Origin: an uncultured Desulfobulbaceae bacterium
GTDB lineage: Bacteria > Desulfobacterota > Dissulfuribacteria > Dissulfuribacterales > DYLC01
Direction: 5' to 3'
DNA: 64,000 bases
Assembly: GCA_964427245.1 (NCBI GenBank)
Contig: CAYRSX010000038.1
Span: 2,495-66,494, forward strand
Within the stretch, counting starts at the first letter, position 1, and the number at the start of each line of letters is the position of its first letter. Shown here one piece after another: positions 8,696 to 43,145 of this stretch. Both the position numbers and the translations under genes were made by a program. The notes below the pieces were generated by a model. It did not search any database. It worked only from the letters and a program-made list of their open reading frames with translations, and had not been told where the DNA came from.

Positions 8696-11275
8696 TTGCA
8701 CCACAGCCTCCTCTTCATAACAGCCATTTTCTTCTTCTGCCTCGGCATTGCAGGAGCCTCTTGTAGTTTAGAGCCTGTTAGCCATGCAATGCAAAATGAT
8801 GCAATTCGGCTGGTCATCGGCTGGTCTTGTGTCTTTTTGGGTGGTTGCGGGCTTTTGGGACAGTTGGTTTCGTTTATTCGGCAAAAAAGGCAGGCAAATG
8901 CAGAGACAAGACCTGTCGGCCTTTCAACATACTTGCTGTCCTGCCTTTTTGCGGCCGTTTTGTTTCTGGGACTAGGCGGTGTGCATGTTTGTTTCTATGA
9001 AAAGAGCTATGCTGACAGGGCGGGGCCCCTTTGGGATATAGCGCAAAAAAAAGAGGAAGTGGTGCTTATAGGACAGGTGATTCGTATGCCTGTTTCCACT
9101 GAAAGAGGTGACACTCGTTTGCGTATAGGCCTGTTGGCAAGGGCCGAACCACAAGGCCTGTCACTCATCAAAGGCGATATCTTGCTTCATGTGAAGAGCC
9201 TGGATTATCGGGATGTGCTGCCGGGTGATGTCTTGCGTTTTGCGGTCAGATTACGGGAACCCAAGGGATTTGCTGTGCCCGGGGCCTTTGATCACAGGCT
9301 CTGGCTGGAGATTCAGGGCATTCATGCAACGGCAATTGTGGTCAGTCCTCTGAAGATGGCTGTGACCGGTCATTTTCACTCTTCTCCTGTGCTGCCTTAT
9401 TGGCGGTATGTGTTGGAGACGAAGCGAATGCGACTTGTTGAGGCGTTGTGCGAGGCATTCCCTTCAAATGACACGCGTAGCCTTGCAGTGGGTTTGCTGC
9501 TGGGCGAGCAGGCAGGCATGGACAAAGATGTCCGGGAGCTTGCTCAAGTGACCGGTATAAGCCATCTGCTGGCAGTTTCGGGCACCAATATGACTCTGGT
9601 TGCCCTTATGGCCGGGTTGCTCGTGTATCGTCTCCTCATTCACTGGCAGTTCATTGCACTGAGATTTTCCGTGCGGCGGATAGCGGCAGGCATGGCTGTG
9701 ATGGCCGTTCTTATATATGCTGGAATGGCGGGTTTTTCTGTTTCCGCCATACGGGCTGTACTTATGACCGTCGCCATCTCGGCCGCTTTTGTCCTGAACC
9801 GGCCTCAAAGCCTTTTGAACGCACTGGCCCTGGCTGGTCTGGTCCTGTTGCTCTTTGAGCCGTTACAGCTTTTCAGTCCCTCATTTCAGCTGTCTTTTGC
9901 GGCTGTCTTCTTTTTGTGCGGTCTGGCTGCGCCTTTTTTACAACGATTTGAAAAAACAACCACCCCGCCCTTCGGGCACCCCTCCACAGGAGGGGACACC
10001 ACTTCCGGCATAAATAGGCCGCCATTGATTACATTGAAATACCGCATCATATCCCTGTTTGTAGCGGGTTTTGTGGCCCTTTTGGCCACTGCTCCCTTTA
10101 TCGCATGGCATTTTCAAAGGTTTTCTTTGCTGGCTCTGCCTGTAAATCTCGTAGCGGTGCCCCTGACTGATCTCCTTTTGTTGCCGGGTCTTATGCTCGG
10201 GGCATTGTCGCTGCCTTTTTCTTCTGCAGTGGCCTTTGGTATCTGGCGAGTCATGGATGTAATTCTCGGTCTGTCTTTGAATGGTTTGCAGTGGATAAGC
10301 GGTTGGGAGTATGCTTCGTTTTGGTGCATCAAGCCATGGATGTGGCAGGTGGTCGTCTCATGTATGGTACTTCTGGCCCTAGTGTTGGCTGTTAGGCATA
10401 GGGGTCGGGAGAAGAGATGGCTTTGCATCTCATTGGTTTTGGCGATGACATGTGTGGGAGGGTTTTGGTATCGGACCTGGACGATATCCAACAGCAGTAC
10501 TCTTCGACTTCATGTTTTAGACGTAGGGCAGGGTTTGGCACAGGTAGTGGAAGGCCCTAGGGGTTTTTTGATGGTCATGGATGCAGGAGGTCTTGGCAAT
10601 ACGGATTTCGATACCGGAGAAAGGCTGGTGGCCCCTTTCATAAGACATCTCGGTTATAATACCATCGATCTCCTGGTGATGAGTCATCCTGAACAGGATC
10701 ACATGGGAGGTATTCCATATCTGCTCAGGCATTTTCGAGTCAAACGGTTTTGGAGCAATGGCGCTTCAGGAGAGGGGGAGACATGGAATCTACTTCAGAC
10801 AGCCCTTACGAAGACGGCCTGTACTGTTGAGACGCCTTCTGATGGCGATGTGTTGAATGTACAGGGTCTTTCCGTTCGGCCCCTCATCCTTCATGGATGC
10901 CACGGTCTGGAGACGCGAAACGCCCGTTCACTGGTGTTGCTATTGGAGTATCGAGGTCGCTCGCTCCTTCTTACAGGTGACATGGATGCCCAACGAGCGG
11001 CCTGTATTCTAAAAGAACTTTCTCATACGGATATCCTGGTAGCGCCTCATCATGGCAGCAAGGGCTCCAATTCCCCCGCGTTCGTTCAGGCGGCCAGTCC
11101 GGGCGTGGTGATATTTTCCGCTGGCAGGGACAATCCCTTTCATCTGCCCAACAAGTCGGTGATTCAGCGCTATATGGAGGTAGGCAGCAGGATTTTGACC
11201 ACAGAACGAAATGGAACCATCACGGTTGAGGTGAGTGCATCAAGTGCATTGAGTATAAGAAATAGCTTGCCGTGA
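8696..11275 (+). CDS. comEC: DNA internalization-related competence protein ComEC/Rec2 (polytopic membrane domain plus C-terminal metallo-beta-lactamase domain)
   Basis: Multiple TM segments. The competence-domain motif LAVSGTNMTLV is present, as is the C-terminal MBL motif LVMSHPEQDHMGG ... APHHGS. The start is TTG at 8696 (ORF track) and is uncertain. Confidence 0.8.
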   Translation: MHHSLLFITAIFFFCLGIAGASCSLEPVSHAMQNDAIRLVIGWSCVFLGGCGLLGQLVSFIRQKRQANAETRPVGLSTYLLSCLFAAVLFLGLGGVHVCFYEKSYADRAGPLWDIAQKKEEVVLIGQVIRMPVSTERGDTRLRIGLLARAEPQGLSLIKGDILLHVKSLDYRDVLPGDVLRFAVRLREPKGFAVPGAFDHRLWLEIQGIHATAIVVSPLKMAVTGHFHSSPVLPYWRYVLETKRMRLVEALCEAFPSNDTRSLAVGLLLGEQAGMDKDVRELAQVTGISHLLAVSGTNMTLVALMAGLLVYRLLIHWQFIALRFSVRRIAAGMAVMAVLIYAGMAGFSVSAIRAVLMTVAISAAFVLNRPQSLLNALALAGLVLLLFEPLQLFSPSFQLSFAAVFFLCGLAAPFLQRFEKTTTPPFGHPSTGGDTTSGINRPPLITLKYRIISLFVAGFVALLATAPFIAWHFQRFSLLALPVNLVAVPLTDLLLLPGLMLGALSLPFSSAVAFGIWRVMDVILGLSLNGLQWISGWEYASFWCIKPWMWQVVVSCMVLLALVLAVRHRGREKRWLCISLVLAMTCVGGFWYRTWTISNSSTLRLHVLDVGQGLAQVVEGPRGFLMVMDAGGLGNTDFDTGERLVAPFIRHLGYNTIDLLVMSHPEQDHMGGIPYLLRHFRVKRFWSNGASGEGETWNLLQTALTKTACTVETPSDGDVLNVQGLSVRPLILHGCHGLETRNARSLVLLLEYRGRSLLLTGDMDAQRAACILKELSHTDILVAPHHGSKGSNSPAFVQAASPGVVIFSAGRDNPFHLPNKSVIQRYMEVGSRILTTERNGTITVEVSASSALSIRNSLP
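9956..10005. repeat. copy of the GC-rich double-hairpin repeat module (M5) embedded in-frame in comEC
   Basis: The reverse complement GAAGTGGTGTCCCCTCCTGTGGAGGGGTGCCCGAAGGGCGGGGTGGTTGT matches 37605..37655 apart from one substitution and a 1-nt indel. Confidence 0.85.
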
Positions 11276-21057: not shown

Positions 21058-21146
21058 TCGCCGCAGGGGTGGGCGGACGTATAGCCTGTCCACCTCGAGT
21101 TATGTAGAGATGGGTTCAGAACCCGCTCGGACCATTCCAGCGGCAA

Positions 21147-21339
21147 AAGGATTTCTCGGTCGCTGTGCTTCATTCGAAATGACACTTGTTGTTGTGTGAC
21201 AGGCGAGATGTTTGCGACAGGTGAGACGCCTGTCTTACGGGTAGTGTCTTTGTCATTTTCGAGCGAAGTGGTTGTAATTGCTTACGAACTGGCTGTCATT
21301 TCGAGCGAAGCGAGAAATCTTATAAAAGCGAGGAATCTT
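21147..21339. repeat. mosaic repeat cluster (modules M1inv-M2-M2-M1-M1), colinear with 37486..37746
   Basis: AAGGATTTCTCGGTCGCTGTGCTTCATTCGAAATGACA ... GACAGGTGAGACGCCTGTCTTAC ... TGTCATTTTCGAGCGAAGTGGTTGTAATTGC ... TGTCATTTCGAGCGAAGCGAGAAATCTT. By eye it is near-identical, module for module, to the cluster after pyrC. Confidence 0.85.
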
Positions 21340-21341
21340 TT

Positions 21342-21767: not shown

Positions 21768-21861
21768 ATGCTATGTTTTTAAAGGCATTAAAACCCGAAA
21801 ACATCGTCTTCATAAACGAAGGCAAGGTTGCATGACGGAAAGTCCTATTGTATCGATTGCT

Positions 21862-22254: not shown

Positions 22255-22286
22255 AAAATGAATTATGAAGTTTGGTTGTGCTGCTG

Positions 22287-26437: not shown

Positions 26438-26518
26438 GGCAGTCTCTCCTTAAGTCGATATATGGTATGCGGCAGCGTGCCTCCACAATGGGTGTAAAGG
26501 AGGGTAGTACAAAATATA

Positions 26519-27202: not shown

Positions 27203-27219
27203 AACCGGCCTTTACAAGA

Positions 27220-27858: not shown

Positions 27859-27969
27859 GGAGTGAGCCTATTGAACGGAGATTTCGCGGGAGAACACACA
27901 GGTTCACCCTTACAAATATATGACATTTTTTTTGAAGGATGTAAATGGCTGAAATTTATTTCACGCGCA

Positions 27970-27997
27970 GTAGGGGCGCACGGCCGTGCGCCCCTAC
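27970..27997. repeat. perfect 28-nt palindrome (repeat module M3)
   Basis: GTAGGGGCGCACGGCCGTGCGCCCCTAC is its own reverse complement. A degenerate copy lies at about 31902..31929. Confidence 0.9.
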
Positions 27998-28445
27998 AAA
28001 TCAATTCATCCGTTTGTATTTTTGAGCTTGTTTTTTATGATGAATGGTGGTAAAGGGCTTAAAAAACGCAGCTTTCTTCATTTGCCGTGGAGTGAATCAA
28101 TTGTGTTGCTTGCACAGGGCGACCCCAGGAGTAAATGTTCGCGCTGCCGGTTCATGGATTTATGGCCTTTTCATTTCGAGGTATGAACAAAATTAAATGG
28201 AAGACTATCACAGTTTAAGCTCATTTCGTTTGACTCTCAAATTTCGCGCTGCTACGCAACTGAGGCTGCTGCGCATGTGACGGTTTTGCACGCCCTGATT
28301 TACGTGCCTGTTCACTGGCAGCATTCCGGTTTGCGGAGTGTGGAGGTGAACAGTGCAAGGGCAAAATTCGTTCAAAACAGACCCCCTTTTTAAGGAAAAC
28401 AATGCAGGGCTTGGTCAGACAAGGGCTGGTGCAGAGTCCAGGTTC

Positions 28446-31016
28446 ATGGAATTGTGTCTGGCGCCCCTTTCAGATGTACTATCAAGACTTAACACATCGC
28501 TAAACGGTCTGTCATCGGAAGAAGCCGGCCGCAGATTGGCTGAATACGGGCCAAACGAGCCTGCTGAAACCAAAAGACTGAGCCTTTTGCTGGAACTTCT
28601 TTCAAGATTGAAAAACCCATTGAATCTTCAGCTGGTAGTCATAGCCTTTCTGTCTTTTTTGCTCGGAGAGACGCTGGCCTCGGTTATGGTCCTTTCAATG
28701 ATTTTTCTAAGCATAGGGTTGTCCTTCGTGTTGGACAGGCGTTCCACAAAGGCAGTGGAATCACTTGGTAAGCGTGTTCAGTCCAGGACCGTTGTGCTGA
28801 GGGATGGCGTTGAGACGGAGATGCGCATCTCCGAGGTAGTGCCAGGGGATATTGTGGTGCTCAGCGCCGGCTCCATTATCCCAGCGGATGTGCGATTGAT
28901 TACCGCCAAGGATTTTTTTGTCAGCGAGTCGGCCCTGACAGGCGAGTCCATGCCAGTGGAAAAGACCTTCACGCCTTTGCCCGATGGCCAGAGAAACACG
29001 GCTCTTGCCTTGAATAACGCCTGTTTTCTTGGAACATTTGTGGTCAGTGGAGCGGCCAGGGCATTGGTTATCAACACAGGCAAAGACACGATTTTCGGCT
29101 CCATTGCCCAGAGCCTTACAGGGCACCGCCATGAGACGAGTTTCGATAGGGGAATTAAGTTTCTGACCTGGCTACTGATGCGTCTTATGCTGGTGGTCGT
29201 GTCTTTAGTCTTTTTGATTGTAGGCCTGACCAAAGGAAACTGGCTGGAGGCCCTGCTATTTGGTCTTTCTGTAGCCGTAGGCCTTACGCCTGAGATGCTT
29301 CCCATGATTCTCACGGTGAATCTGGCAAAGGGCGCCCTGAGTATGGCGAAAAAGAAGGTCATCGTCAAGCAGCTTCCAGCCATTCAGAACTTCGGCGCTA
29401 TTGATATTCTATGCACAGACAAGACAGGCACTCTTACGCAGGATAGAGTGGTGCTCGAGAAGCATGTGGATATCATAGGTAACGAGAGTGAAGATGTGCT
29501 GAATTATGCCTATCTCAACAGCTATTACCAGACTGGCCTCAGAAGTCTCATAGATCGCGCCGTGCTCGACTATACGAATCTGGATGTGGAACGCAATTGC
29601 AGGCTGGTGGATGAGTTGCCCTTTGATTTTCAGCGCAAACGGATGTCTGTGGTGGTGGACTATGAAGGCGACCATGTGCTCATCTGTAAGGGTGCAGTGG
29701 AGGAGATATACGGCTGTTGCACACATTATCAGATCGGTGACGAGGTATATCCGCTTATAGACCTGCTCAGGGCCGAACTCTTTGAGGATGTGGAGGAGTT
29801 GAGCAGAAACGGTTTTCGTGTGCTGGGAGTTGCCTATCGGGAGTTTTCCAGAGACAAGACCTCATTTACGGTGGCGGATGAAAGTAATCTGATATTGCTT
29901 GGTTATATGGCATTTTACGACCCGCCCAAAGATTCGGCCATGGACGCCGTTCGTCTGCTCAAAAAAGCAGGGGTCAGTGTGAAGGTTTTGACTGGTGACA
30001 ATGCCCTGGTGACTCAGAAGGTTTGTGTAGATGTGGGTTTGCCGGTGAGCCGCGTGGTGACTGGAAGCGAGCTTGCCTCTCTTTCTGCAGAGGATTTTTC
30101 CAAGGCTGTGCGAGAGGCGCAGGCGTTCGTCAAGCTCAGCCCTTCTCAGAAGGAGCAGATAGTCAAGGAGTTTCGTTCTCATGGCCATGTGGTGGGTTTT
30201 ATGGGAGACGGTATCAATGATGTTCCTGCCCTGAAGGTTGCTGATGTGGGTATATCGGTGGATTCGGCTGTGGATGTGGCCAAGGAGGCCGCAGACATAG
30301 TGTTATTGGAGAAGAGCCTTTTGGTGCTGGAAGAGGGCATTTTGGAGGGCAGGCGGGTTTTTATGAACATCATAAAGTATATTCGAATGGGTGCAAGTTC
30401 CAATTTCGGCAATATGTTCAGTGTGATAGGGGCCAGCTATCTGCTGCCGTTTTTGCCCATGCAGCCCATTCAGATACTGACAAACAACCTGCTCTATGAT
30501 TTTTCTCAGACAGGCATTCCAACGGACAACGTGGACGAGGAGTTCATTGCAAAGCCGCTCAAATGGGACATCGAAGGCATCAAGCGTTTTATCTTTTGCA
30601 TAGGTCCCATCAGTTCCGTATTCGACTATGCCACATTTGCCCTGATGTGGTTTTACTATGGGGCGAAGGTGTTCGTGGATGCAACGGCCACCGCGGTTCA
30701 GAAGGATTATGCTGAGCGTCTCTTTCAGACAGGTTGGTTTGTGGAGTCCCTCATAACTCAGATGCTTATTGTGTATATCATCAGAACCAAACGAATACCT
30801 TTTGTGGAGAGTCGGCCGTCTCTGCCCATGCTTTTGGTCACTGTAATGGTCATGGCTTGTTGCGCCTGGCTGCCTTACTCACCCCTTTCCGTATATCTTG
30901 GCATGGTGCCGCTGCCTGCATCCTATTGGTTCTGGATAGTAGGATTCATGTTGTCCTACGGCGTTATAACCCACTGGGTCAAGCTTTGGTTTTATAAAAA
31001 ATATAGAGGTCATTGA
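28446..31016 (+). CDS. mgtA: magnesium-translocating P-type ATPase
   Basis: DKTGTLT phosphorylation site, TGES, MGDGINDVPAL, and an MgtA-like N-terminus (LNTSLNGLSSEEAGRRLAEYGPNE). I preferred the ATG at 28446 to the GTG at 28353. Confidence 0.9.
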   Translation: MELCLAPLSDVLSRLNTSLNGLSSEEAGRRLAEYGPNEPAETKRLSLLLELLSRLKNPLNLQLVVIAFLSFLLGETLASVMVLSMIFLSIGLSFVLDRRSTKAVESLGKRVQSRTVVLRDGVETEMRISEVVPGDIVVLSAGSIIPADVRLITAKDFFVSESALTGESMPVEKTFTPLPDGQRNTALALNNACFLGTFVVSGAARALVINTGKDTIFGSIAQSLTGHRHETSFDRGIKFLTWLLMRLMLVVVSLVFLIVGLTKGNWLEALLFGLSVAVGLTPEMLPMILTVNLAKGALSMAKKKVIVKQLPAIQNFGAIDILCTDKTGTLTQDRVVLEKHVDIIGNESEDVLNYAYLNSYYQTGLRSLIDRAVLDYTNLDVERNCRLVDELPFDFQRKRMSVVVDYEGDHVLICKGAVEEIYGCCTHYQIGDEVYPLIDLLRAELFEDVEELSRNGFRVLGVAYREFSRDKTSFTVADESNLILLGYMAFYDPPKDSAMDAVRLLKKAGVSVKVLTGDNALVTQKVCVDVGLPVSRVVTGSELASLSAEDFSKAVREAQAFVKLSPSQKEQIVKEFRSHGHVVGFMGDGINDVPALKVADVGISVDSAVDVAKEAADIVLLEKSLLVLEEGILEGRRVFMNIIKYIRMGASSNFGNMFSVIGASYLLPFLPMQPIQILTNNLLYDFSQTGIPTDNVDEEFIAKPLKWDIEGIKRFIFCIGPISSVFDYATFALMWFYYGAKVFVDATATAVQKDYAERLFQTGWFVESLITQMLIVYIIRTKRIPFVESRPSLPMLLVTVMVMACCAWLPYSPLSVYLGMVPLPASYWFWIVGFMLSYGVITHWVKLWFYKKYRGH

Positions 31017-31018
31017 AC

Positions 31019-31825
31019 ATGGATACACTTTTAGATGCCCTGCAGGAAGGAAGGTTGTTTGAGCTTCCGGAGAACGACAAGGCGGACGCTATGCAGTTTC
31101 TCGCTCACATCATTGAGGCATTCCCCGACATACCGCCGGGTATTGATATCGTGTCTGATGTCCTGGCCCGAGAAAAGGCCATCAATTCCTCCATAGGTAA
31201 CGGATGGGCATGCCCCCAGGCAAAGGTGCCTTTTGAAGGGGACCTCATGTGTGTTGTTGGGTGGAGTCCCACCGGTATTGATTACGGGGCCAAGGATGGC
31301 CATCCAGTTTCCCTGATGGTCATGCATCTTGTGCCTATAAATCAGCGGAATCATTATCTTCGTGAAATCTCCATACTGGCCAAGGCCATAGAGGCCAGGC
31401 CTGATGTATCGAGACTGGAGCAGTCGGCGGACCTGAACGATGTCAGAAATTATCTCTTGGACCTGATTTCCGAGACCAAGGGGATAGTCGGGCCTGATTC
31501 CCGGGCCCGTATGATCAAACTTCAGGCTAGAATGATGCCCGAGCCTCAGGGCGTATGGGATGTGGCGGGCCTGACGGTGGAGCCGGTTACCCTTATATTC
31601 GGGCCAGGCATGCAGAAGCCGTTGGTGTTGGGGCATAACGCCGGACTGGTGGAATGGTTGGATAGTAGTGCGGGCGTGTTGGAGCGTATTGAAAGTGATG
31701 GCTTTTATCAGAACGGAAACTGGCGTCTCATGCGTTGGCAGAGCACCGCTTTTCAGGGAGGCCGCGTGCTCTACAAGTGCATCGCCATGGCGACCGGTGG
31801 TTTGCCGGTTCGAAAATCCAAATAA
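31019..31825 (+). CDS. PTS EIIA(Ntr)-like domain protein with Gln in place of the phospho-His, plus an uncharacterised C-terminal half
   Basis: LAREKAINSSIGNGWACPQAKV aligns with E. coli PtsN LTREKMGSTGIGNGIAIPHGKL, so His73 corresponds to Gln. VSLMVMHLVP aligns with DLLFALLVP. The start lies 3 nt after the mgtA stop. Confidence 0.65.
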   Translation: MDTLLDALQEGRLFELPENDKADAMQFLAHIIEAFPDIPPGIDIVSDVLAREKAINSSIGNGWACPQAKVPFEGDLMCVVGWSPTGIDYGAKDGHPVSLMVMHLVPINQRNHYLREISILAKAIEARPDVSRLEQSADLNDVRNYLLDLISETKGIVGPDSRARMIKLQARMMPEPQGVWDVAGLTVEPVTLIFGPGMQKPLVLGHNAGLVEWLDSSAGVLERIESDGFYQNGNWRLMRWQSTAFQGGRVLYKCIAMATGGLPVRKSK

Positions 31826-31832
31826 AAGAGTT

Positions 31833-31929
31833 GTGACAGGTGGCCTCTTTTGTCATTTCGGGCAAACCCTCTGTCATTTCGAGCGTAGCGAGAAATCTTA
31901 AGTAGGGGCGCATAGCCGTGCGTCTCTAC
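31833..31929. repeat. mosaic repeat cluster (M1 variants plus a degenerate M3)
   Basis: TGTCATTTCGGGCAAACCCTCTGTCATTTCGAGCGTAGCGAGAAATCTTAAGTAGGGGCGCATAGCCGTGCGTCTCTAC. The first part is colinear with 37697..37746. Confidence 0.85.
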
Positions 31930-32181
31930 TTCTAATGGCGCCCTGATATGGATTTTTTTGCCCCAAAGCCTTGACAAAGCAAAAAACGGCGTGTTAACAA
32001 GAAGACAATCTGTGCAATATCCTCAGTCCTGACGCTGTGTTCGAACGCAGATATTTCCCGTGCCCGGTTGGGCCTGATTTTATTTTATCGTTCATATAGA
32101 ATTATTAGGTAGCATTGAGAAAATCGCTTTATTGAGTGTAGTAGCGGCAATGTATTCAATTTACGAAAAGGAGTCTCAAAC

Positions 32182-32730
32182 ATGAAAGAAGTACGACTTC
32201 ATGGTCGCGGCGGTCAGGGTGGTGTCACCTCCGCGGAGCTGGTGGCCACGGCAGCCATAGCTGAAGGCCGATATGCCCAGGCGTTTCCAAGCTTTGGGCC
32301 GGAGCGCAGGGGCGCGCCTGTCACTGCCTTTGTGCGAGTCAGTGACACACAGATCCGTACAAGGGAAAAGGTCTATCATCCGGATATAGTCTTGGTTTTG
32401 GATGCGTCCTTGCCTGGCATTGTAAAGGTTTCAGAGGGGTTGAAGGATGGCGGAATAGTCATTCTTAATTCCTCTCTGTGTGAAGACGATATTCGCAAAG
32501 AGTTCGGTCTCACGGCCAAGTTGGCTGTGGTGGATGCCAATACCATAGCCAAAGAGGTGCTTGGTATCCCCATAACCAATACCACCATGCTTGGAGCGCT
32601 TCTAAAGGTAACTGGCATAACCGGTTTGGATGCCATCAGCGACGCCCTTGACAAGCGCTTCGGCAAGCTGGCGGAGAAGAATAAGGCGGCTCTGAGAAGG
32701 GCCTATGAAGAGACTAAAATCTACGGTTGA
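32182..32730 (+). CDS. porG: 2-oxoacid (pyruvate):ferredoxin oxidoreductase gamma subunit
   Basis: VRLHGRGGQGGVTSAELVA..., followed by the gamma-delta-alpha-beta gene order. Confidence 0.85.
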   Translation: MKEVRLHGRGGQGGVTSAELVATAAIAEGRYAQAFPSFGPERRGAPVTAFVRVSDTQIRTREKVYHPDIVLVLDASLPGIVKVSEGLKDGGIVILNSSLCEDDIRKEFGLTAKLAVVDANTIAKEVLGIPITNTTMLGALLKVTGITGLDAISDALDKRFGKLAEKNKAALRRAYEETKIYG

Positions 32731-32761
32731 TAGAATTATAATAGCTTTTAAGGAGAATAAT

Positions 32762-33073
32762 ATGGCAATAAGCGACGCCATTATAGGATGGAAGACACTG
32801 CCTTTCGGCGGCCATGTGCTGGAACCGGGCAGTACGGCCAAATTCAAGACAGGAGACTGGAAATCGCAGCATCCTGTCACAGATAATTCTAAATGTATAA
32901 AGTGTGGCATGTGCTGGATATTTTGTCCTGAGGTGGCCTATCAGCAGACCGAAGAGGGCTTTTATGTGGCAAATCTGGATTATTGTAAGGGATGTGGCAT
33001 CTGCGCCCATGAGTGTCCCAAGAATGCCATCACCATGATTGCAGAGGAGGGTGGAAAATGTCAAAGCGTGTAG
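32762..33073 (+). CDS. porD: 2-oxoacid:ferredoxin oxidoreductase delta subunit (2x[4Fe-4S] ferredoxin)
   Basis: CIKCGMCWIFCP and CKGCGICAHECP. SD AAGGAG precedes the ATG at 32762. Confidence 0.85.
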   Translation: MAISDAIIGWKTLPFGGHVLEPGSTAKFKTGDWKSQHPVTDNSKCIKCGMCWIFCPEVAYQQTEEGFYVANLDYCKGCGICAHECPKNAITMIAEEGGKCQSV

Positions 33074-34236
33074 GAGTAGAGGTTTCCATTGCAATGGCGG
33101 ATACCGTGGCCCTTGCCAGGGCCGAGGTGATTTCAGCATATCCCATCACGCCTCAGACTCACATAGTGGAGCATCTGTCCGAGATTGTTGCCAACGGACA
33201 TCTGGACGCCGAATTCATTCCAGTGGAGTCGGAGCATGCTGCCCTGAGTTGTGCATGCGGCTCTTCCGCCGCCGGCGCCAGGACGTTTACAGCCACCAGT
33301 TCCCAAGGCCTGTCCCTGATGAGCGAGATACTCTATCATCCCGGTCCTATGAGGCTGCCCATCGTCATGGTGGTGGCCAATCGAGCCCTGGCCGCTCCCA
33401 TCAGTATCTGGAATGACCATCAGGACATCATGGTGCAGAGGGATATCGGCTGGATACAGACATTTGCGGAAAACGGTCAGGAGGCGGTTGACCTGTTGCT
33501 TCATGCCTTCAGAGTGGCGGAAGACAAACGTGTCGCGTTGCCTTTTATTGTCAACATAGATGGTTTTACGCTTAGCCATGTTATAGAGCCCATCATCATG
33601 CCTGATCAGGAAGAGGTGGACAGATATATCCCTTCATTCAAGCCGCATTACAAGCTGGATCCAAGAAAGCCCATCAGTATGGGGCCTGTAGGGATTCCGG
33701 AGGTATATACTGAAGAAAAAATGGTCCACAATGAGGTGTTAAAGGCCTCCAAGCGTGTCATTTTGCAGGGCTGGAAGGAATTTGCCGAGCAATTTGGCAG
33801 GCAATACAATCCGGTCGAGGTGTATCGTACAGAGGATGCCGAGACTCTGTTAGTTACGATGGGTAGCATCTCCGAGACTGCCATGACCGCAGTGGATGAA
33901 ATGCGTAATGCGGGCAAAAAGGTCGGTCTGGTGCGTATTCGTCTCTGGCGGCCGTTCCCTGGTCCGGAATTCAGAAAGGCCATAGGTAAGGCCAAAGTTC
34001 TGGCTGTGATCGACAGATGCCTGCCTCCAGGTGCGGTGTGTGGTCCTGTGGGTGCTGAGTTGCGTTCTCTGCTCTATCGTGTGCCGGGTGCTCCGAAGAT
34101 ATTTAGCTTTGTGGCGGGTCTGGGCGGTAGGGATGTGACCGTTGACAGATTCAAGGAGATAGTGGACAAGGCAGAGATGTATGCCAAGAAACGTCCTGTA
34201 GAACTTTATGAAGTGATAGGGGTGCGCGAAAAATGA
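33058..34236 (+). CDS. porA: 2-oxoacid:ferredoxin oxidoreductase alpha subunit
   Basis: MSKRVGVEVSIAMADTVALARAEVISAYPITPQTHIVE... is a typical PorA N-terminus. SD GGAGGG precedes the ATG at 33058. Confidence 0.85.
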   Translation: MSKRVGVEVSIAMADTVALARAEVISAYPITPQTHIVEHLSEIVANGHLDAEFIPVESEHAALSCACGSSAAGARTFTATSSQGLSLMSEILYHPGPMRLPIVMVVANRALAAPISIWNDHQDIMVQRDIGWIQTFAENGQEAVDLLLHAFRVAEDKRVALPFIVNIDGFTLSHVIEPIIMPDQEEVDRYIPSFKPHYKLDPRKPISMGPVGIPEVYTEEKMVHNEVLKASKRVILQGWKEFAEQFGRQYNPVEVYRTEDAETLLVTMGSISETAMTAVDEMRNAGKKVGLVRIRLWRPFPGPEFRKAIGKAKVLAVIDRCLPPGAVCGPVGAELRSLLYRVPGAPKIFSFVAGLGGRDVTVDRFKEIVDKAEMYAKKRPVELYEVIGVREK

Positions 34237-35168
34237 TACCTGAACTCGAAAAATTTGTCGGCTTTTCCGCCAAGAATCTTTCCAAGGATGAACCCCTTGC
34301 CTCTGGTCACAGGGCATGTCAGGGTTGTGGAGAGGTTTTGGCCCTGCGTATGGTCATGAAGGCCCTTGGTAGGGATGTAATTGTATGCAATGCCACCGGT
34401 TGTATGGAGATTGTCACGTCTCCATTCCCACAGACTGCATGGAACGTGCCGTGGATACATATCGCCTTTGAGAATGCCGCATCTGTTGCATCCGGCGTAG
34501 AGGCCGCTCGCAAGGTCCTGGCCCGTAAAGGTAAGATTTCCAAGAAGCATGTGGATATTTTGGCCGTTGGTGGCGATGGCGCCACTGGCGATATAGGTCT
34601 TCAGTGGATATCAGGCGCTATGGAGCGTGGCCATGATTTTCTATATGTCTGTCTGGATAACGAGGCCTATATGAATACAGGTGTTCAGCGCTCTGGTTGT
34701 ACTCCATACGGCGCCATGACCACCACAAGCCCTCCGGGTTCACAGAGCTTTGGCCAGGTAACCTGGAAGAAGAATGTTCCGGCCATTATGGCGGCGCATG
34801 GCATCAAATATGTGGCCACTGCATCGCCTGCCTACTACCTGGATCTCATGAACAAGGTCAAAAAGGCGGCTATGGTCAAGGGGCCAGCCTATGTGCATAT
34901 ATATTCTCCATGTCCAACAGGTTGGGGATCGGCTGGTGAACGTTCCATAGAGATCGCTCGCCTTGTGGTGGAGACCAAGGTATTTCCTCTTTATGAAATA
35001 ATAGACGGCAAATACATCATGAGCCGCAAGATTACCAAGCCCAAGCCGGTTACCGAGTATCTAAAGACACAGCGTCGCTTCAGGCATCTGAAAGAGGAAC
35101 AGATCAACTATATTCAGAGCCGTGTGGATGCAGAGTATGAAAAGCTTCTGAAGTTATCGGAGATGTAA
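34233..35168 (+). CDS. porB: 2-oxoacid:ferredoxin oxidoreductase beta subunit (TPP-binding)
   Basis: GHRACQGCGE, GGDGATGDIG and NEAYMNTGVQ are TPP and FeS motifs. ATGA overlap with porA. Confidence 0.85.
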   Translation: MIPELEKFVGFSAKNLSKDEPLASGHRACQGCGEVLALRMVMKALGRDVIVCNATGCMEIVTSPFPQTAWNVPWIHIAFENAASVASGVEAARKVLARKGKISKKHVDILAVGGDGATGDIGLQWISGAMERGHDFLYVCLDNEAYMNTGVQRSGCTPYGAMTTTSPPGSQSFGQVTWKKNVPAIMAAHGIKYVATASPAYYLDLMNKVKKAAMVKGPAYVHIYSPCPTGWGSAGERSIEIARLVVETKVFPLYEIIDGKYIMSRKITKPKPVTEYLKTQRRFRHLKEEQINYIQSRVDAEYEKLLKLSEM

Positions 35169-35195
35169 AATGTTTTTTTAGCCATGTAATTTTTT

Positions 35196-35227
35196 GCCTC
35201 CTTTTGTAAAAAAGGAGGCTTTTTTTT
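35196..35227 (+). terminator. strong intrinsic terminator after porB; its 3' arm contains the pyrB Shine-Dalgarno
   Basis: GCCTCCTTTT-gtaa-AAAAGGAGGC followed by TTTTTTTT. The pyrB ATG follows at 35231. Confidence 0.8.
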
Positions 35228-35230
35228 GCC

Positions 35231-36160
35231 ATGAATAGATTGAGCGTAAAACATATATTGGGTATTGAGCAGCTCACTATCGATGACATTCGTCTGATCC
35301 TCGATACAGCGGAGGCCTTAAAGGGGATTTTGAACCGTCCTATCAAAAAGGTGCCTCCCTTGCGAGGCGCCACGGTGGTGAATCTCTTTTTTGAACCCAG
35401 TACGCGCACTCGGCTCTCCTTTGAGCTGGCCGCAAAACGTCTGAGTGCAGATACCGTATCCGTGTCCGCTGCTACGAGCAGTGTGCTCAAGGGTGAGACT
35501 CTGTTGGACACTGCCCGCAATGTGGAGGCCATGCGGTCCGATATACTGGTCCTGCGTCATTTCTATTCGGGCGCCCCATATTTTCTGGCCCAACGTCTTA
35601 AGGGCTGCTCTGTAATAAATGCCGGAGACGGTATAAACCAGCATCCCACTCAGGCCCTTTTGGACCTTTTTACTGTAAGGGAGCGGCTGGGGCGAGTAAA
35701 AGGCCTCAAGATAACTATTTTAGGCGATATTATGCACAGCCGTGTGGCCCATTCCGACATTCGACTCTTTCATGCCATGGGAGCACATGTCGTTGTGTCA
35801 GGGCCAGCCAATCTTCTGCCTTTGACTCTCAAAGCACTTGGTGCTGAGGTTACTTACAGTGTGGACGAGGCCCTCGATGGTGCGGATGTGGTGATGCTCC
35901 TGAGGCTTCAGTTGGAGAGACAGGGTGCAGGCTTGATTCCTTCAGGCTGTGAATATGCTAACTTTTTTGGTCTGGTTCATAAAAAATGTCTGAATTTGGC
36001 CCCTAACGCCATAATTATGCATCCAGGTCCCATAAATCGTGGCGTGGAGCTGTCATCGGAATTGGCGGACTCAGCACAATCGGTAATTTTGGATCAGGTG
36101 ACCAATGGTGTGGCGGTTAGAATGGCTATCCTGTCGCTTTTATGGGCTGATAGGAGTTGA
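35231..36160 (+). CDS. pyrB: aspartate carbamoyltransferase catalytic subunit
   Basis: FFEPSTRTRLSFE, HPTQALLD and HPGPINRGVE motifs. Confidence 0.9.
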   Translation: MNRLSVKHILGIEQLTIDDIRLILDTAEALKGILNRPIKKVPPLRGATVVNLFFEPSTRTRLSFELAAKRLSADTVSVSAATSSVLKGETLLDTARNVEAMRSDILVLRHFYSGAPYFLAQRLKGCSVINAGDGINQHPTQALLDLFTVRERLGRVKGLKITILGDIMHSRVAHSDIRLFHAMGAHVVVSGPANLLPLTLKALGAEVTYSVDEALDGADVVMLLRLQLERQGAGLIPSGCEYANFFGLVHKKCLNLAPNAIIMHPGPINRGVELSSELADSAQSVILDQVTNGVAVRMAILSLLWADRS

Positions 36161-36175
36161 ATCTGGAGTATAAAA

Positions 36176-37471
36176 ATGGACTTGCTTCTTGAGAATGCTT
36201 TGCTTTTGGATCCTGCTTCCGGTCTGAATGAGATGGGCGCTGTTTGGGTTCGAAGTGGCCGTATAGAGGGCATATTTTTGGCCAGAGATGGATCACCATT
36301 GCATTTGCCTGTACAGCGCATGGATTTGAAGGGCTGTTGGCTGGTTCCCGGTTTGATAGATATGCATGTTCATTTGAGAGAGCCGGGAGAGGAATACAAG
36401 GAGACCATTGCCACCGGCACAAGGGCTGCGGCAGCAGGTGGTTTTACGGCAGTTGCAAGTATGCCCAATACAAGACCTGTGAATGATGATGTGACCGTCA
36501 CTGCATTTATAAAACATAAGGCGGAGTTGGAGGGCAGCGCTCGTGTATATCCTGTGGCCTGTATTACGAGAGGCCAGCAGGGCAAGGAGTTGACGGAGAT
36601 GGGTTTGTTATTGGAGGCCGGGGCCGTGGCCTTTTCAGATGATGGAAGGCCTGTAACCGACGCCGCCATTATGCGTGCGGCCATGGAGTATGTGCGTGGT
36701 TTTGACGCCCTTATCATCTCTCATGCCGAGGAGTTGAATCTTGTGGGAAATGGTGTCATGAATGAAGGCCTGATTTCGCAGGTCTTGGGGCTTAGGGGTA
36801 TACCTTGTGTGGCCGAGGAGATAGCTGTTTTTCGCGATATAGCCCTTGCAAAATATACCGGAGCGAGGTTGCACATAGCGCATGTTAGCACAAAAGGCGC
36901 TGTGGAGTTGATTCGTAGGGCCAAAAACGAAGGGGTGCGTGTTACAGCGGAAACTGCCCCGCATTATTTTACACTTACCGAGGAGGCTGTACTGGGCTAC
37001 AATACTAATGCAAAGATGAACCCACCTCTTCGAATAGAAGAAGACAGACAGGCTGTTATAGATGGATTGAAAGATGGTACGCTGAATGTAATAGCGACAG
37101 ATCATGCGCCTCATAGTGTATTGGAAAAGGAGATCGAGTTTGACAGGGCGGCCAATGGCATCATTGGATTGGAGACAGCTGTTCCTCTTGCATTGGAATT
37201 GGTGCGGCAGCAGCATCTAACGCCTCTTCAGATGGTTGCAAGCCTTTCATTGAATCCAGCCTGTATCTTGGGTGTGCCTGGAGGAAGGCTGAAAGTGAGT
37301 GAACCTGCCGATCTATGTATCATAGATCCAAATATGCCATTTGAAATCACGCGAGATAATCTGTTTTCCAAAAGTTGGAATACGCCGTTTTTGGGTCAAC
37401 GTCTTATGGGCAGGGTTGTTTTGACTATGAAGTCAGGTCAAGTGATACATAATCTTGTAGGGGCGGAGTAG
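36176..37471 (+). CDS. pyrC: dihydroorotase (multifunctional-complex type)
   Basis: LIDMHVHLREPG, ...IATDHAPH..., about 430 aa, directly after pyrB. Confidence 0.9.
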   Translation: MDLLLENALLLDPASGLNEMGAVWVRSGRIEGIFLARDGSPLHLPVQRMDLKGCWLVPGLIDMHVHLREPGEEYKETIATGTRAAAAGGFTAVASMPNTRPVNDDVTVTAFIKHKAELEGSARVYPVACITRGQQGKELTEMGLLLEAGAVAFSDDGRPVTDAAIMRAAMEYVRGFDALIISHAEELNLVGNGVMNEGLISQVLGLRGIPCVAEEIAVFRDIALAKYTGARLHIAHVSTKGAVELIRRAKNEGVRVTAETAPHYFTLTEEAVLGYNTNAKMNPPLRIEEDRQAVIDGLKDGTLNVIATDHAPHSVLEKEIEFDRAANGIIGLETAVPLALELVRQQHLTPLQMVASLSLNPACILGVPGGRLKVSEPADLCIIDPNMPFEITRDNLFSKSWNTPFLGQRLMGRVVLTMKSGQVIHNLVGAE

Positions 37472-37485
37472 CACTTACTCCTATC

Positions 37486-37746
37486 AAGGATTTCTCAGTC
37501 GCTGTGCTTCATTCGAAATGACACTGGTTGTTGTGTGCTACAGGCGAGACGGTTGTGACAGGCGTCTCGCCTGTCTTACGAGTGGTGCCTTTGTCATTTC
37601 GAGCGAAGTGGTGTCCCCTCCTGTGGGGAGGGTGCCCGAAGGGCGGGGTGGTTGTAATTGCTCACGAACTGGCTGTCATTTCGAGTGAAGCGGTTGTGAT
37701 TTCGAGCAAACCCTCTGTCATCCCGAGCGTAGCGAGGAATCTTAAG
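37486..37746. repeat. largest mosaic repeat cluster (M1inv-M2-M2-M1[M5 nested]-M1-M1-M1)
   Basis: Colinear with 21147..21339 but with an extra 40-nt module (37612..37651) and additional M1 variants (GTGATTTCGAGCAAACCCTC, TGTCATCCCGAGCGTAGCGAGGAATCTTAAGG). Confidence 0.9.
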
Positions 37747-37782
37747 GCGCTACAGATGAATTACGACAGGGTATGAAACACT

Positions 37783-39279
37783 ATGGCAGTTATATTATTA
37801 GTGGATGATGATCGAAGTTTAAGGGAGTTTCTGGAGATCTTTCTTGTGAAAGAGGGGCATATCGTTCTGCCTGCTGCTAATGCCGCCGAGGCCTTGAAGC
37901 TCCTTGACGATCGTTTGGATATACAGGTGGTGATAAGCGATATCCGTATGCCCGACATGAGCGGCATAGAGCTTCTGAAGCGAATAAAGGCTCAAAGGCA
38001 AGAGTTGCCCGTGGTGCTTATAACGGCCTTCGCCTCAATGGATACGGCCATATCCGCTATGCGAGAAGGGGCATGGGATTATCTGGCCAAGCCGTTTCGT
38101 CTGGATGAGGTGCGCCGAGTGCTGCAAAACGTCTTAGGGTCGCATAATATGCCTTTTACATTGGAGCAGGCAGCAGCATCCTCTGTTATTCAGGAGAAAT
38201 TATCTCAGAAGGTGACCGTTAGTAACAGTAACGAACTCCAGTATCCGCACAAGGGTCTTCATATACATCGTATGGATCGCATGGTGTCATGCAGTCCAGT
38301 CATGCTCAAGATATTTCAGCTTGTTCAAAAGATCGCATCGAGCCTATCCAGCGTATTGATAACAGGCGAAAGTGGTACTGGTAAGGAGCTGGTGGCGCGT
38401 GCCATTCACAATCTCGGCAATCGAGCGAAGAATCCTTTTGTAGTGGTGAATTGTGGTGGAATACCGGAAAATTTATTGGAGACAGAGCTTTTCGGCCATG
38501 TAAAAGGGGCTTTCACCGGAGCTGACAGAGAAAAGACCGGCCTGTTCTCTTTGGCTGATAAAGGCACCATCTTTCTGGATGAAATCGGCGAGTTACCCCT
38601 TACTCTTCAGGTCAAGTTGTTGCGAGTGGTGCAGGAGAAGACCTTCATGCCAGTGGGTGGAACTGGCGAGCAGCAAGTCGATGTGCGTATTATAGCTGCG
38701 ACCAATCGAGATATGGAAAAAGAGGTTATTGCCGGTAGATTCCGTGAGGATCTCTTTTACCGTCTGAACGTCATTCACATACACGTTCCGCCTCTTCGGG
38801 AACGGCCTGAGGATATACCGGTTTTGGTTCAGTATTTTCTGGATAAATTTGCAAAAGAGCAGGGGAAGTCCCTACAGGGGATCTCCAGCTTTGCCATGAA
38901 AATACTCCAGGGATATACCTTTCCGGGGAATATTCGAGAACTGGAAAATATAGTTGAAAGAAGTGTAACTTTGGAGACTTCCAGTATTCTTTTGCCGGAA
39001 AGCCTGTCTATTTCCCGCTTCAAAGAGACTGTTGAAGGCACTGCTGAATATTCGTCTAGTTCGAACGAATTAAAACCATTGCATCTTCTTAGTTGTCTTG
39101 AGTCACTGGAGATACCCAATGAGGGTATTGAACTGGATGAATTCCTTGCAAATATCGAAAAGGCTCTGATCTTGAAGGCATTGAGGATTACTAACGGTTC
39201 AAAAATGAATGCCGCTCGATTGCTGCGTATGAATTTTCGCTCCTTTCGTTACCGGTTGGATAAGTACGGCATAGAATAA
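37783..39279 (+). CDS. sigma-54-dependent two-component response regulator (REC, AAA+, Fis-type HTH), NtrC family
   Basis: ILLVDDD...VISDIRMPDMSG (REC), GESGTGKE Walker A, GAFTGA loop, and a C-terminal HTH (NAARLLRMNFRSFRYRLDKYGI). Confidence 0.9.
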   Translation: MAVILLVDDDRSLREFLEIFLVKEGHIVLPAANAAEALKLLDDRLDIQVVISDIRMPDMSGIELLKRIKAQRQELPVVLITAFASMDTAISAMREGAWDYLAKPFRLDEVRRVLQNVLGSHNMPFTLEQAAASSVIQEKLSQKVTVSNSNELQYPHKGLHIHRMDRMVSCSPVMLKIFQLVQKIASSLSSVLITGESGTGKELVARAIHNLGNRAKNPFVVVNCGGIPENLLETELFGHVKGAFTGADREKTGLFSLADKGTIFLDEIGELPLTLQVKLLRVVQEKTFMPVGGTGEQQVDVRIIAATNRDMEKEVIAGRFREDLFYRLNVIHIHVPPLRERPEDIPVLVQYFLDKFAKEQGKSLQGISSFAMKILQGYTFPGNIRELENIVERSVTLETSSILLPESLSISRFKETVEGTAEYSSSSNELKPLHLLSCLESLEIPNEGIELDEFLANIEKALILKALRITNGSKMNAARLLRMNFRSFRYRLDKYGIE

Positions 39280-41725: not shown

Positions 41726-41792
41726 GGGGGCATGTCCCCCGTGGCCGCCTGAAACAGGGCAGGGGCAGGTACGGGCACGGCATGCCGTGCCC
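41726..41792. repeat. GC-rich hairpin/palindrome modules (M4 type)
   Basis: GGGGGCATGTCCCCC and the perfect 20-nt palindrome GGGCACGGCATGCCGTGCCC (41773..41792). They are related to 43037..43064. Confidence 0.8.
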
Positions 41793-43036: not shown

Positions 43037-43145
43037 TTAAGGACACGGCATGCCGTGTCCTTAACCTGTTATTTCGAGCGAAGCGAGAAATCTTTACAAA
43101 GTAGCACAGTCCTGTCTGTGTTTTTTTTACAGCCTCGAAATGACA
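43037..43145. repeat. mosaic repeat cluster (28-nt perfect palindrome M4, M1, inverted M1 fragment)
   Basis: TTAAGGACACGGCATGCCGTGTCCTTAA (43037..43064, perfect palindrome), then TGTTATTTCGAGCGAAGCGAGAAATCTTT ... CCTCGAAATGACA. Confidence 0.85.

What the first reader, a model, noticed from the sequence alone, without database searches (positions are those of the whole stretch)
37612..37651. Nested 40-nt insertion distinguishes two otherwise colinear repeat clusters, giving empty-site versus filled-site evidence for mobility
Cluster 21147..21339 reads ...TCGAGCGAAGTGG|TTGTAATTGCTTACGAACTGG..., with the junction at 21271/21272. Cluster 37486..37746 reads ...TCGAGCGAAGTGG-[TGTCCCCTCCTGTGGGGAGGGTGCCCGAAGGGCGGGGTGG]-TTGTAATTGCTCACGAACTGG....

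The extra 40 nt can fold into two adjacent hairpins, CCCTCC/GGAGGG and GCCC-gaa-GGGC, and ends in GTGG, the same bases that precede it. This pattern could be a short target-site duplication or a recombination scar.

The comEC copy has the same flanks: GAAGTGG on one side and TTGT on the other. That suggests either a preferred target, GAAGTGG^TTGT, or a slightly longer mobile unit.
Basis: seen in the sequence. Interest (0 to 1): 0.6.

Follow-up and report, generated by a model that had tools for sequence, protein, structure and literature searches.

The report
Orphan triplex-type DNA repeat, gained or lost
The extra 40 bases are one copy of a small GC-rich foldable DNA repeat of the known but unexplained BoxC / "triplex motif" kind; it occurs almost letter for letter in many bacterial phyla, multiplied only in this genome among its relatives, and has even entered protein-coding genes in frame.

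Summary
Window 37612-37651 is 40 nt absent from the otherwise colinear cluster at 21.27 kb (91% identical). The indel is bounded by a 5-nt direct repeat, GTGGT.

The module has 26-28 copies in this 2.0-Mb genome and none in 40 relatives. Its 20-nt core occurs exactly in more than 120 contigs from many phyla.

Its layout is CCCCTCC-loop-GGAGGGG-T-GCCC GAA GGGC-GGGGTGG. That is a class II purine-motif intrastrand triplex, as in BoxC/PIT/TM repeats, but the second loop is a 12-nt GNA mini-hairpin.

In other phyla, inverted pairs of the module enclose DUF559 nuclease genes. This genome has no DUF559 gene.

The comEC copy (39 nt, 13 codons, in frame) is missing from all 11 orthologues examined, which is a clean empty site. 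Two further copies lie in frame in other ORFs.

GTGG is not a general target duplication. Most copies lack it on the left, and the right GTGG is the element's own conserved end. About 18-20 copies spread as cargo inside a larger palindromic repeat.

Whether the 37.6-kb site gained the unit or the 21.3-kb site lost it cannot be decided from these data.

Verdict: a discrete, recently multiplied repeat module; a new variant of a known kind; its copying mechanism is inferred.

The parts
37612..37651 (+). The 40-nt module ('M5'). In the 6-triad register: Y stem CCCTCC 37616-37621, loop 37622-37626, R stem GGAGGG 37627-37632, second loop 37633-37645 holding the mini-hairpin GCCC-GAA-GGGC (37634-37644), third-strand block GGGTGG 37646-37651.
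37607..37654 (+). Longer unit AGTGG-[module]-TTG, shared by the three copies of this subfamily. The GTGGT direct repeats lie at 37608-37612 and 37648-37652.
21265..21275 (+). Site without the module, GAAGTGGTTGT, with a single GTGGT at 21268-21272. It is either a never-filled site or the footprint left after precise loss of one unit.
21147..21339 (+). Mosaic repeat cluster without the module. The orthologous intergenic regions in two same-genus genomes lack the cluster.
37486..37746 (+). Mosaic repeat cluster with the module. It is built of modules with 2 to about 105 genomic copies. The orthologous intergenic regions in two same-genus genomes (about 10 and 100 nt long) lack the cluster.
37653..37672 (+). 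Segment TGTAATTGCTCACGAACTGG, found only in these two clusters. It shows that the two clusters are copies of one ancestral composite.
9960..9998 (-). 39-nt copy of the module in frame inside comEC; read on the + strand it encodes TPPFGHPSTGGDT. The 47-nt unit spans 9957-10003.
8696..11275 (+). comEC ORF (859 aa; Competence, DUF4131 and metallo-beta-lactamase domains) that carries the in-frame copy in a hydrophilic stretch between two hydrophobic segments.

Best explanation
The 40 nt is a gene-less ('orphan') copy of a pan-bacterial family of small foldable DNA repeats. They belong to the BoxC / PIT / 'triplex motif' (TM) class.

On one strand the module reads: pyrimidine stem CCCCTCC, a short loop, purine stem GGAGGGG, a 12-nt connector that is itself a C-GAA-G (GNA) mini-hairpin, then GGGGTGG. 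The last block can lie antiparallel on the purine stem as G.G-C and T.A-T triads.

In other phyla, two inverted copies frame a small DUF559 (Vsr-like) nuclease gene. This genome has no such gene.

Here the family entered one lineage and reached 26-28 copies. About 18-20 copies ride inside the centre of a larger palindromic repeat (about 62 nt without cargo) that has itself multiplied. Eight to ten copies stand outside the full composite (two keep only its left arm, one only its right). Three of these lie in frame in ORFs.

Inferred steps:
- The solo copies were written into new sites by the cell's own break repair or template switching, guided by a few bases of similarity to the unit's ends (AGTGG ... 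GGTTG).
- The same GTGGT direct repeats allow precise loss by replication slippage.

The difference between 37.6 kb and 21.3 kb is therefore one gain or one loss of exactly one unit. The direction is unresolved.
For: Copy number and lineage specificity:
- 26 copies against 0 in 40 relatives, including two same-genus genomes.
- Both clusters are absent from the orthologous intergenic regions.

Independent occurrence:
- The module is seen in at least 8 contexts.

Empty site:
- comEC orthologues in 11 genomes lack exactly the 13 codons. The two same-genus genomes read AAAACAACC|GATTCCGGC and AAAGCAACC|GATTTTGAC there.

Pan-bacterial family:
- The exact 20-mer occurs in more than 120 contigs of many phyla.
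- The consensus is (A)ATTCCCCTCC-loop-GGAGGGGTGCCCGAAGGGCGGGGTGG(G/T)T.

Triplex layout:
- 7 of 7 triads in six copies, and 6 of 6 in this one.
- The connector hairpin covaries: GCCC/GGGC, GGCC/GGCC, GGTC/GACC, GGCGC/GCGCC.
- One three-way covariant was found: CTCCTCC/GGAGGAG/GAGGTGG.
- Antiparallel-compatible third strands number 162, against 27 for the parallel control.
- The class is described in Holder 2015, PMC4666352.

DUF559 link:
- Inverted pairs 350-490 nt apart enclose this ORF in six fetched loci; four of the six were scanned and score 95-105 bits for DUF559.
- None in this genome.

Short-homology copying:
- The three subfamily copies share AGTGG and TTG flanks.
- Relatives already have GGTTGT at the comEC site, but TC where this genome has GT.
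- In two other ORFs the unit replaces a stretch of similar length rather than simply adding to it.

Hitch-hiking:
- 18-23 copies have identical composite flanks on both sides.
- 18 of 28 copies have lost the triplex and hairpin potential.
Against: - No triplex was measured here. For the E. coli motif, no stable triplex was seen in double-stranded DNA or in vivo.
- Most copies in this genome (GGAGTGAG variant) cannot form the fold, so the fold is not needed for persistence.
- No presence/absence polymorphism was seen in the five public metagenome runs. The contigs are identical to the window and both filled sites are fixed.
- The two 'replacement' cases lie in fast-evolving linkers, where alignment is unreliable.
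- The copying mechanism is inferred from three or four junctions only.
Confidence: 0.65

Rival explanations
1. The module would be a miniature transposable element that inserts at GAAGTGG^TTGT and duplicates GTGG (or GTGGT) as a target-site duplication.
For: - The three subfamily copies all show GTGGT on both sides and share GAAGTGG/TTGT or AGTGG/TTG flanks.
- The 21-kb site has exactly one GTGGT.
- The exact word GAAGTGGTTGT is rare, with 2 sites in the genome.
Against: - The other roughly 23 copies have no GTGG on the left.
- The right GTGG(TTG) is part of the conserved element in over 100 other genomes, so it is not target-derived.
- The comEC target in relatives is GGAATCGGTTGT.
- The module has no terminal inverted repeats and no associated transposase.
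- In two ORFs the unit replaces DNA rather than adding to it.
Confidence: 0.08
2. The units would have been spread by a DUF559 (Vsr-like) nuclease that recognises the folded repeat and cuts there, with repair then copying the unit. The nuclease gene was later lost from this genome, leaving orphan copies.
For: - Inverted pairs of this very module enclose the same small ORF in six loci from several phyla; four of the six were scanned and match DUF559.
- A same-genus relative has a DUF559 domain with triplex-type motifs of another sequence beside it.
- Co-resident organisms in the same samples carry the module, so import is plausible.
Against: - This 99.5% complete genome has no DUF559 gene or remnant, yet it has two identical 39-nt copies in ORFs, which suggests recent events.
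- There is no biochemical evidence anywhere that DUF559 acts on these repeats, and no paper links them.
- The association could equally reflect the repeats targeting, or being tolerated around, such genes.
Confidence: 0.2
3. This is the REP/RAYT-type system. The module would be a REP sequence moved as single-stranded DNA by the genome's one Y1 (IS200-like, RAYT-like) transposase, inserting 3' of a GTGG word without duplication.
For: - One Y1_Tnp ORF of 285 aa lies at C21:1500-2357. It scores 38 bits on Pfam Y1_Tnp, and its best NCBIfam match is REP-associated tyrosine transposase.
- An element that ends in GTGG and lies 3' of GTGG would fit the IS200/IS605 style of insertion.
Against: - The gene is not flanked by the module or by the TGTCATT repeats. 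It has its own 19-bp inverted repeats, GGGGTCAGGTCTTGAAATA.
- There is no module copy on that contig.
- The NCBIfam score of 67 is below the cut-off of 80.
- Its HUH motif reads H-Y-Y.
- In other phyla the module's partner is DUF559, not a Y1 transposase.
- Most copies lack the left GTGG.
Confidence: 0.05
4. The module would be a functional RNA or regulatory signal (terminator, attenuator, small RNA) selected at each site, rather than selfish or neutral DNA.
For: - It has two stable GC-rich hairpins.
- Many copies are intergenic.
Against: - There is no Rfam match at E <= 1 across 20900-38000.
- Copies lie in both orientations relative to genes and inside three ORFs.
- The commonest variant has lost the first hairpin.
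- No U-tract follows the module.
- E. coli PIT elements showed no promoter or terminator activity (Holder 2015).
- Purine-motif triplexes do not form in RNA.
Confidence: 0.03

Closest known systems
BoxC / PIT (potential intrastrand triplex) elements / TM-ECO triplex motifs of E. coli and other bacteria (Hoyne et al. 2000; Holder et al. 2015, PMC4666352)
   Same: - The order of blocks on one strand is the same: pyrimidine stem, loop, purine stem, loop, then G/T third-strand block with antiparallel G.G-C and T.A-T triads (class II).
- Both are GC-rich, multi-copy and about 35-40 nt long.
- Copy number differs sharply between close relatives.
- Both often occur as inverted pairs and are linked to local indels.
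- This genome also holds 12 exact matches, counting both strands, to the published TM-ECO pattern.
   Different: - The stems are 7 nt (CCCCTCC) rather than 9 nt (CCCTCNCCC).
- The second loop is a 12-nt GNA mini-hairpin rather than 3 nt. That lies outside the loop limits of both published searches (at most 6 and at most 10 nt).
- The sequence is nearly invariant across many phyla, not only Proteobacteria.
- Copies occur in frame inside ORFs, whereas TM-ECO is reported as always intergenic.
Rickettsia palindromic elements (RPE; Ogata et al. 2000, from my own knowledge, not checked here)
   Same: - A short palindromic repeat is inserted in frame into protein-coding genes.
- It adds a short peptide in a tolerant loop.
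- It has no stop codon in any frame.
   Different: - RPEs are about 100-150 bp and restricted to Rickettsia.
- They are not triplex-type.
- The module here is 39 nt (13 codons) and pan-bacterial.
REP / REPIN elements with RAYT transposases, and BIME mosaic clusters
   Same: - These are short intergenic hairpin repeats in mosaic clusters with other modules.
- They show lineage-specific bursts.
- Palindromic doublets multiply as units, as the palindromic TGTCATT...AATGACA element (about 62 nt without cargo) does here.
   Different: - No RAYT association was found for the module.
- In other phyla the partner gene is a PD-(D/E)XK-type DUF559 nuclease.
- REP sequences are species-specific, whereas this one is shared across phyla.
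DUF559 cassettes framed by double-hairpin repeats
   Same: The same module, in inverted pairs, frames DUF559 genes in six loci fetched here.
   Different: - In this genome the module is orphan, with no DUF559 gene.
- It has spread mainly as cargo of another repeat.

Membership tests
Class II purine-motif intrastrand triplex repeats (BoxC/PIT/TM) | Three blocks on one strand in the order pyrimidine stem, purine stem, reverse-Hoogsteen block, with every position forming G.G-C or T/A.A-T triads in antiparallel register | tested here: met
   CCCCTCC / GGAGGGG / GGGGTGG gives 7 of 7 triads in six genomic copies and 6 of 6 in the copy at 37612-37651. Over 80 of the copies from other phyla show the same.
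Class II purine-motif intrastrand triplex repeats (BoxC/PIT/TM) | Third block co-varies with the duplex stems, more than an orientation control | tested here: inconclusive
   One clear three-way covariant was found, CTCCTCC/GGAGGAG/GAGGTGG. Antiparallel matches number 162 against 27 parallel, or 69 against 19 without the main stem. Many of these counts are shifted registers of the same element, and the loci were fetched with a fixed third block.
Class II purine-motif intrastrand triplex repeats (BoxC/PIT/TM) | Short loops (1-6 nt in ITxF; 0-10 nt in Hoyne et al.) | tested here: not met
   Loop 1 is 3-5 nt, which meets the limit. Loop 2 is 12-13 nt (TGCCCGAAGGGC) and is a mini-hairpin.
TM-ECO / BoxC in the strict sense | Pattern CCCTCNCCC N3-6 GGGNGAGGG N3 GGGNGAGGG | tested here: not met
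   The module does not fit the pattern. A different repeat in the same genome does, with 12 strand matches.
Class II purine-motif intrastrand triplex repeats (BoxC/PIT/TM) | Forms a triplex as an isolated single strand (CD, NMR, melting) | not testable with these tools
   Only Watson-Crick folding could be computed.
MITE with target-site duplication | Terminal inverted repeats, plus a duplication of target bases at every copy | tested here: not met
   The module has no terminal inverted repeats. GTGG(T) lies on the left of only 3 of 28 copies. The right GTGG is internal to the conserved element.
REP/RAYT system | RAYT gene flanked by its own REP sequences, with REP copy number tied to that gene | tested here: not met
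   The single Y1 ORF at C21:1500-2357 is flanked by unrelated 19-bp inverted repeats, and no module copy lies on that contig.
DUF559 cassette (repeat pair plus nuclease gene) | Two inverted copies enclosing a DUF559 gene | tested here: not met
   The feature is met in six loci of other phyla. It is not met in this genome: no DUF559 by profile or tblastn, and genes between inverted copies are ordinary. The copies here can be at most orphan derivatives.
In-frame coding repeats (RPE-like behaviour) | Length a multiple of three, open in all frames, inserted within ORFs with orthologues lacking it | tested here: met
   The copy is 39 nt with no stop codon in any of six frames (read from the sequence). 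The comEC copy is absent from 11 orthologues. Two more in-frame copies lie in the MTHFR-CdhD linker and the PSP1 tail. Copies in long open frames were also seen in other phyla.

The most novel reading that the evidence does not exclude
The hairpin-looped triplex module would be the non-autonomous end of a pan-bacterial, transposase-free mobile system. A DUF559 nuclease would cut the folded repeat, and repair would copy the unit into sites with a few bases of similarity. Such sites would include protein-coding genes, where it lands in frame as a 13-residue Pro/Gly loop. This genome would show the end state: the nuclease lost, with orphan units persisting and multiplying by hitch-hiking in another palindromic repeat.
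Probability: 0.22. Interest if true: 0.75.

Novelty: new variant of a known kind. Interest (0 to 1): 0.5.

Why it matters
BoxC/PIT/TM repeats have been known since the 1990s without an agreed origin, partner enzyme or way of spreading. This locus adds four concrete points:
- A variant whose second loop is a GNA mini-hairpin, which the published triplex searches would have missed, and which is nearly identical across many phyla.
- A clean orthologous empty site, showing that a unit entered a gene in frame.
- A genome where the family expanded without any DUF559 gene. This separates 'how it spreads' from 'what it is usually found next to'.
- Capture of the unit as cargo by another repeat.

Together these make gain, loss and target choice testable with simple reporter constructs.

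Tried and rejected
- Rfam at E <= 1 over 20900-38000 found nothing at the module.
- A search for population polymorphism in five public metagenome runs found none. The contigs are identical to the window, no allele lacking the 40 or 39 nt appeared, and contigs simply break at the repeat.
- The MTHFR-CdhD copy gave no clean empty site, because the relatives' linker is variable and of similar length. The same holds for the PSP1 tail.
- The Y1 transposase as mobiliser was rejected.
- Genes between inverted copies in this genome were checked as possible cargo or partner. They are ordinary genes.
- Literature searches for the exact 20-mer, and for DUF559 together with triplex, returned no papers.
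- I did not determine the organism's name. It was not needed for the argument.

Full report
**The observation**

The two clusters (21147-21322 and 37486-37693) align colinearly at 91% identity, with 151 matches and 15 mismatches. They differ by one block of 40 nt at 37612-37651. Removing any 40 nt that start at 37608-37613 gives the same product.

A segment found nowhere else in the genome, TGTAATTGCTYACGAACTGG, follows the junction in both clusters. The clusters are therefore two copies of one ancestral composite.

**How common the module is**

The window lies in a 2.02-Mb genome of 41 contigs, 48% G+C, rated 99.5% complete.

The 3' half of the module, GTGCCCGAAGGGCGGGGTGG, has 28 copies at up to 3 mismatches, or 26 at up to 2. 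It has none in 40 relatives, including two species of the same genus. The reversed control pattern has 0 copies here and one among the relatives.

The orthologous intergenic regions of both clusters in the same-genus genomes are short and contain no repeats at all. Everything in these clusters is an addition in this lineage.

**Contexts of the copies**

About 18-20 copies sit in one fixed composite: TGTCATTTCGAAGGAGTAATAAATTCCCC...GGGGTGGTGTGAGAAATCTTAAGATTCCTCGCTTCGCTCGGAATGACA. This is a variant of an abundant palindromic element of about 62 nt, TGTCATTTCGAAGGAGCGCAGCGACTGAGAAATCTTAAGATTCCTCGCTTCGCTCGGAATGACA. In the variant, the central CGCAGCGAC is replaced by the module plus a few flanking bases.

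The TIR word of that element has 148 copies here, 13 in one congener and 0 in the other. Most copies of the module therefore multiplied as cargo.

Sixteen to eighteen of them carry GGAGTGAG instead of GGAGGGG and can no longer form the first hairpin.

The remaining eight to ten copies stand outside the full composite, each in a different context (two keep only its left arm, one only its right).

Three copies form a subfamily with identical extra flanks, AGTGG-[39 or 40 nt]-TTG:
- the copy of the finding;
- one inside comEC, at window 9960-9998 on the minus strand;
- one at C14:22107-22145.

**Copies inside genes**

The comEC copy is 39 nt, or 13 codons, and is in frame (...EKTTTPPFGHPSTGGDTTSG...). 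It lies in a hydrophilic stretch between two hydrophobic segments of the Competence domain.

All 11 orthologues examined, two of the same genus and nine of the same order, lack exactly these residues. The two same-genus sites read AAAACAACC|GATTCCGGC and AAAGCAACC|GATTTTGAC.

Note that the relatives have TC where this genome has GT immediately beside the module. The left AGTGG therefore came with the unit rather than from the target. The GGTTGT on the other side already existed in the target.

The C14 copy lies in frame (VVSPPVEGCPKGG) in the long linker of a MTHFR-CdhD fusion protein. A further copy forms part of the C-terminal tail of a PSP1-domain protein, also in frame. In both, the relatives have a different stretch of similar length, so no clean empty site can be drawn.

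The 39-mer has no stop codon in any of its six frames (read from the sequence).

**What the module is**

The phyla and groups include Bacteroidota, Verrucomicrobiota and other PVC groups, Acidobacteriota, Cyanobacteria, Chloroflexota, Nitrospirae, Desulfuromonadales, Firmicutes and Gammaproteobacteria. About one chance match would be expected (my estimate).

The aligned copies give (A)ATTCCCCTCC - variable loop of 3-8 nt - GGAGGGG T GCCC GAA GGGC GGGGTGG (G/T)T.

Two earlier notes of this scan pointed me to the BoxC/PIT/TM literature. I read Holder et al. 2015, PMC4666352, and tested the layout myself.
- The purine stem 5'-GGAGGGG-3' and the last block, read antiparallel (3'-GGTGGGG-5'), give G.G-C at six positions and T.A-T at the seventh. 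That is the class II purine motif.
- The connector between them is a mini-hairpin closed on a GNA triloop. It covaries among copies: GCCC/GGGC, GGCC/GGCC, GGTC/GACC, GGCGC/GCGCC.
- One copy changes all three blocks together: CTCCTCC / GGAGGAG / GAGGTGG.
- Antiparallel-compatible third strands outnumber a parallel control 162 to 27. The counts are inflated by shifted registers.

The 12-nt second loop lies outside the limits of both published searches, at most 6 nt and at most 10 nt. The stems differ from the TM-ECO pattern. I therefore file the module as a variant of the class, not as BoxC proper.

The same genome also holds 12 strand matches to the strict TM-ECO pattern, again inside the palindromic element.

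**Partner gene**

In the loci fetched, inverted pairs of the module 350-490 nt apart enclose a small ORF in six cases. Four of the six were scanned and score 95-105 bits for DUF559. This confirms, on new loci, the association reported by earlier notes of this scan.

This genome has no DUF559 by profile search or tblastn. One congener has a DUF559 domain beside triplex-type motifs of another sequence.

The only Y1 (RAYT-like) transposase ORF, at C21:1500-2357, is not flanked by the module. It has its own inverted repeats and an H-Y-Y in place of HUH.

No paper in the library links DUF559 with triplex repeats or holds the 20-mer.

**Mechanism**

Shown:
- The module is a discrete unit.
- It is specific to this lineage.
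- It has been written into at least one gene that lacked it.
- Most copies spread inside another repeat.

Inferred:
- Solo copies arise by break repair or template switching from an existing copy, guided by a few bases of similarity to the unit's ends. The three subfamily copies carry the same AGTGG and TTG. The comEC target already had GGTTGT. TTG after GGGGTGG is also common in other phyla.
- The GTGGT repeats, 40 nt apart across a stable fold, are the classical substrate for precise deletion by slippage. Holder et al. proposed the same for loss of TM-ECO.

For the 21-kb / 37-kb pair, both directions fit. The 21-kb site holds GTGGTTG, which equals the element's 3' end. That is expected of a footprint and equally of a microhomology target. 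I put the two directions at roughly even odds.

**Population data**

Five public metagenome runs from a microbial mat and hot springs contain the window at zero differences. They show both filled sites and no allele lacking the unit. Contigs drop rare variants, so this is weak evidence of fixation.

**Verdict**

The specific target-duplication reading is not.

The module is an orphan, hairpin-looped member of the known BoxC/PIT/TM class. It stands out for its near-identity across phyla, its in-frame entry into genes, and its expansion in a genome without the nuclease gene that frames it elsewhere.

Noticed in passing
window 37489-37523, 37715-37746, 21149-21185; genome-wide: A palindromic element of about 62 nt, TGTCATTTCGAAGGAGCGCAGCGACTGAGAAATCTTAAGATTCCTCGCTTCGCTCGGAATGACA, and its half-units saturate the intergenic DNA. 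There are 641 TIR-core words genome-wide. The word CTCGCTTCGCTCGGAATGACA has 148 copies here, 13 in one congener and 0 in the other. No mobilising gene was identified.
   Followed up: partly
window 41773-41792 and 43041-43060; about 40 sites genome-wide: A perfect palindrome, GGGCACGGCATGCCGTGCCC, often replaces the centre of the palindromic element, as the module does. This suggests the centre of that element is a general docking place for GC-rich hairpin modules.
   Followed up: no
G000 C14:24643, C11:60345, C28:3402, C38:102334 and others (outside the window): There are twelve strand matches to the published TM-ECO pattern (CCCTCTCCC N3 GGGAGAGGG N3 GGGTGAGGG). Several are full palindromes, again embedded next to TGTCATT-type units.
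   Followed up: partly
G000 C21:1500-2357 (minus strand; locus L025): A single Y1_Tnp / RAYT-like ORF of 285 aa has a C-terminal HTH. Its HUH motif reads N-H-Y-Y-L-L. It is flanked by its own 19-bp inverted repeats, GGGGTCAGGTCTTGAAATA, and is possibly inactive.
   Followed up: partly
G000 C14:20717-23836 (locus L023:718-3837, minus strand): A 1039-aa fusion joins methylenetetrahydrofolate reductase and the CdhD/AcsD delta subunit through a low-complexity linker of about 400 residues. The fusion is conserved in the genus and in a complete same-order genome.
   Followed up: no
loci L083, L134, L096 (other phyla): Copies of the same module lie in long open frames that look like type I restriction-modification methylase genes (for example ...WFLSRNRK-TFPSTGGVPEGRGG-FRDRSKEILFIDARNMG...). 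In-frame entry into genes may be general for this family. This rests on the open-frame criterion only; orthologues were not checked.
   Followed up: partly
viral contigs L161-L167: The exact 20-mer also occurs in 7 stretches on 6 viral contigs, out of 2.9 million viral contigs. That is rare, but a possible route between hosts.
   Followed up: no
sequencing runs X1-X5, laid on window 9950-10005: Other contigs at different depths in the same hot-spring and mat samples carry the module, including a tight inverted pair at depth 196 in X5. Co-resident organisms therefore hold the family.
   Followed up: no
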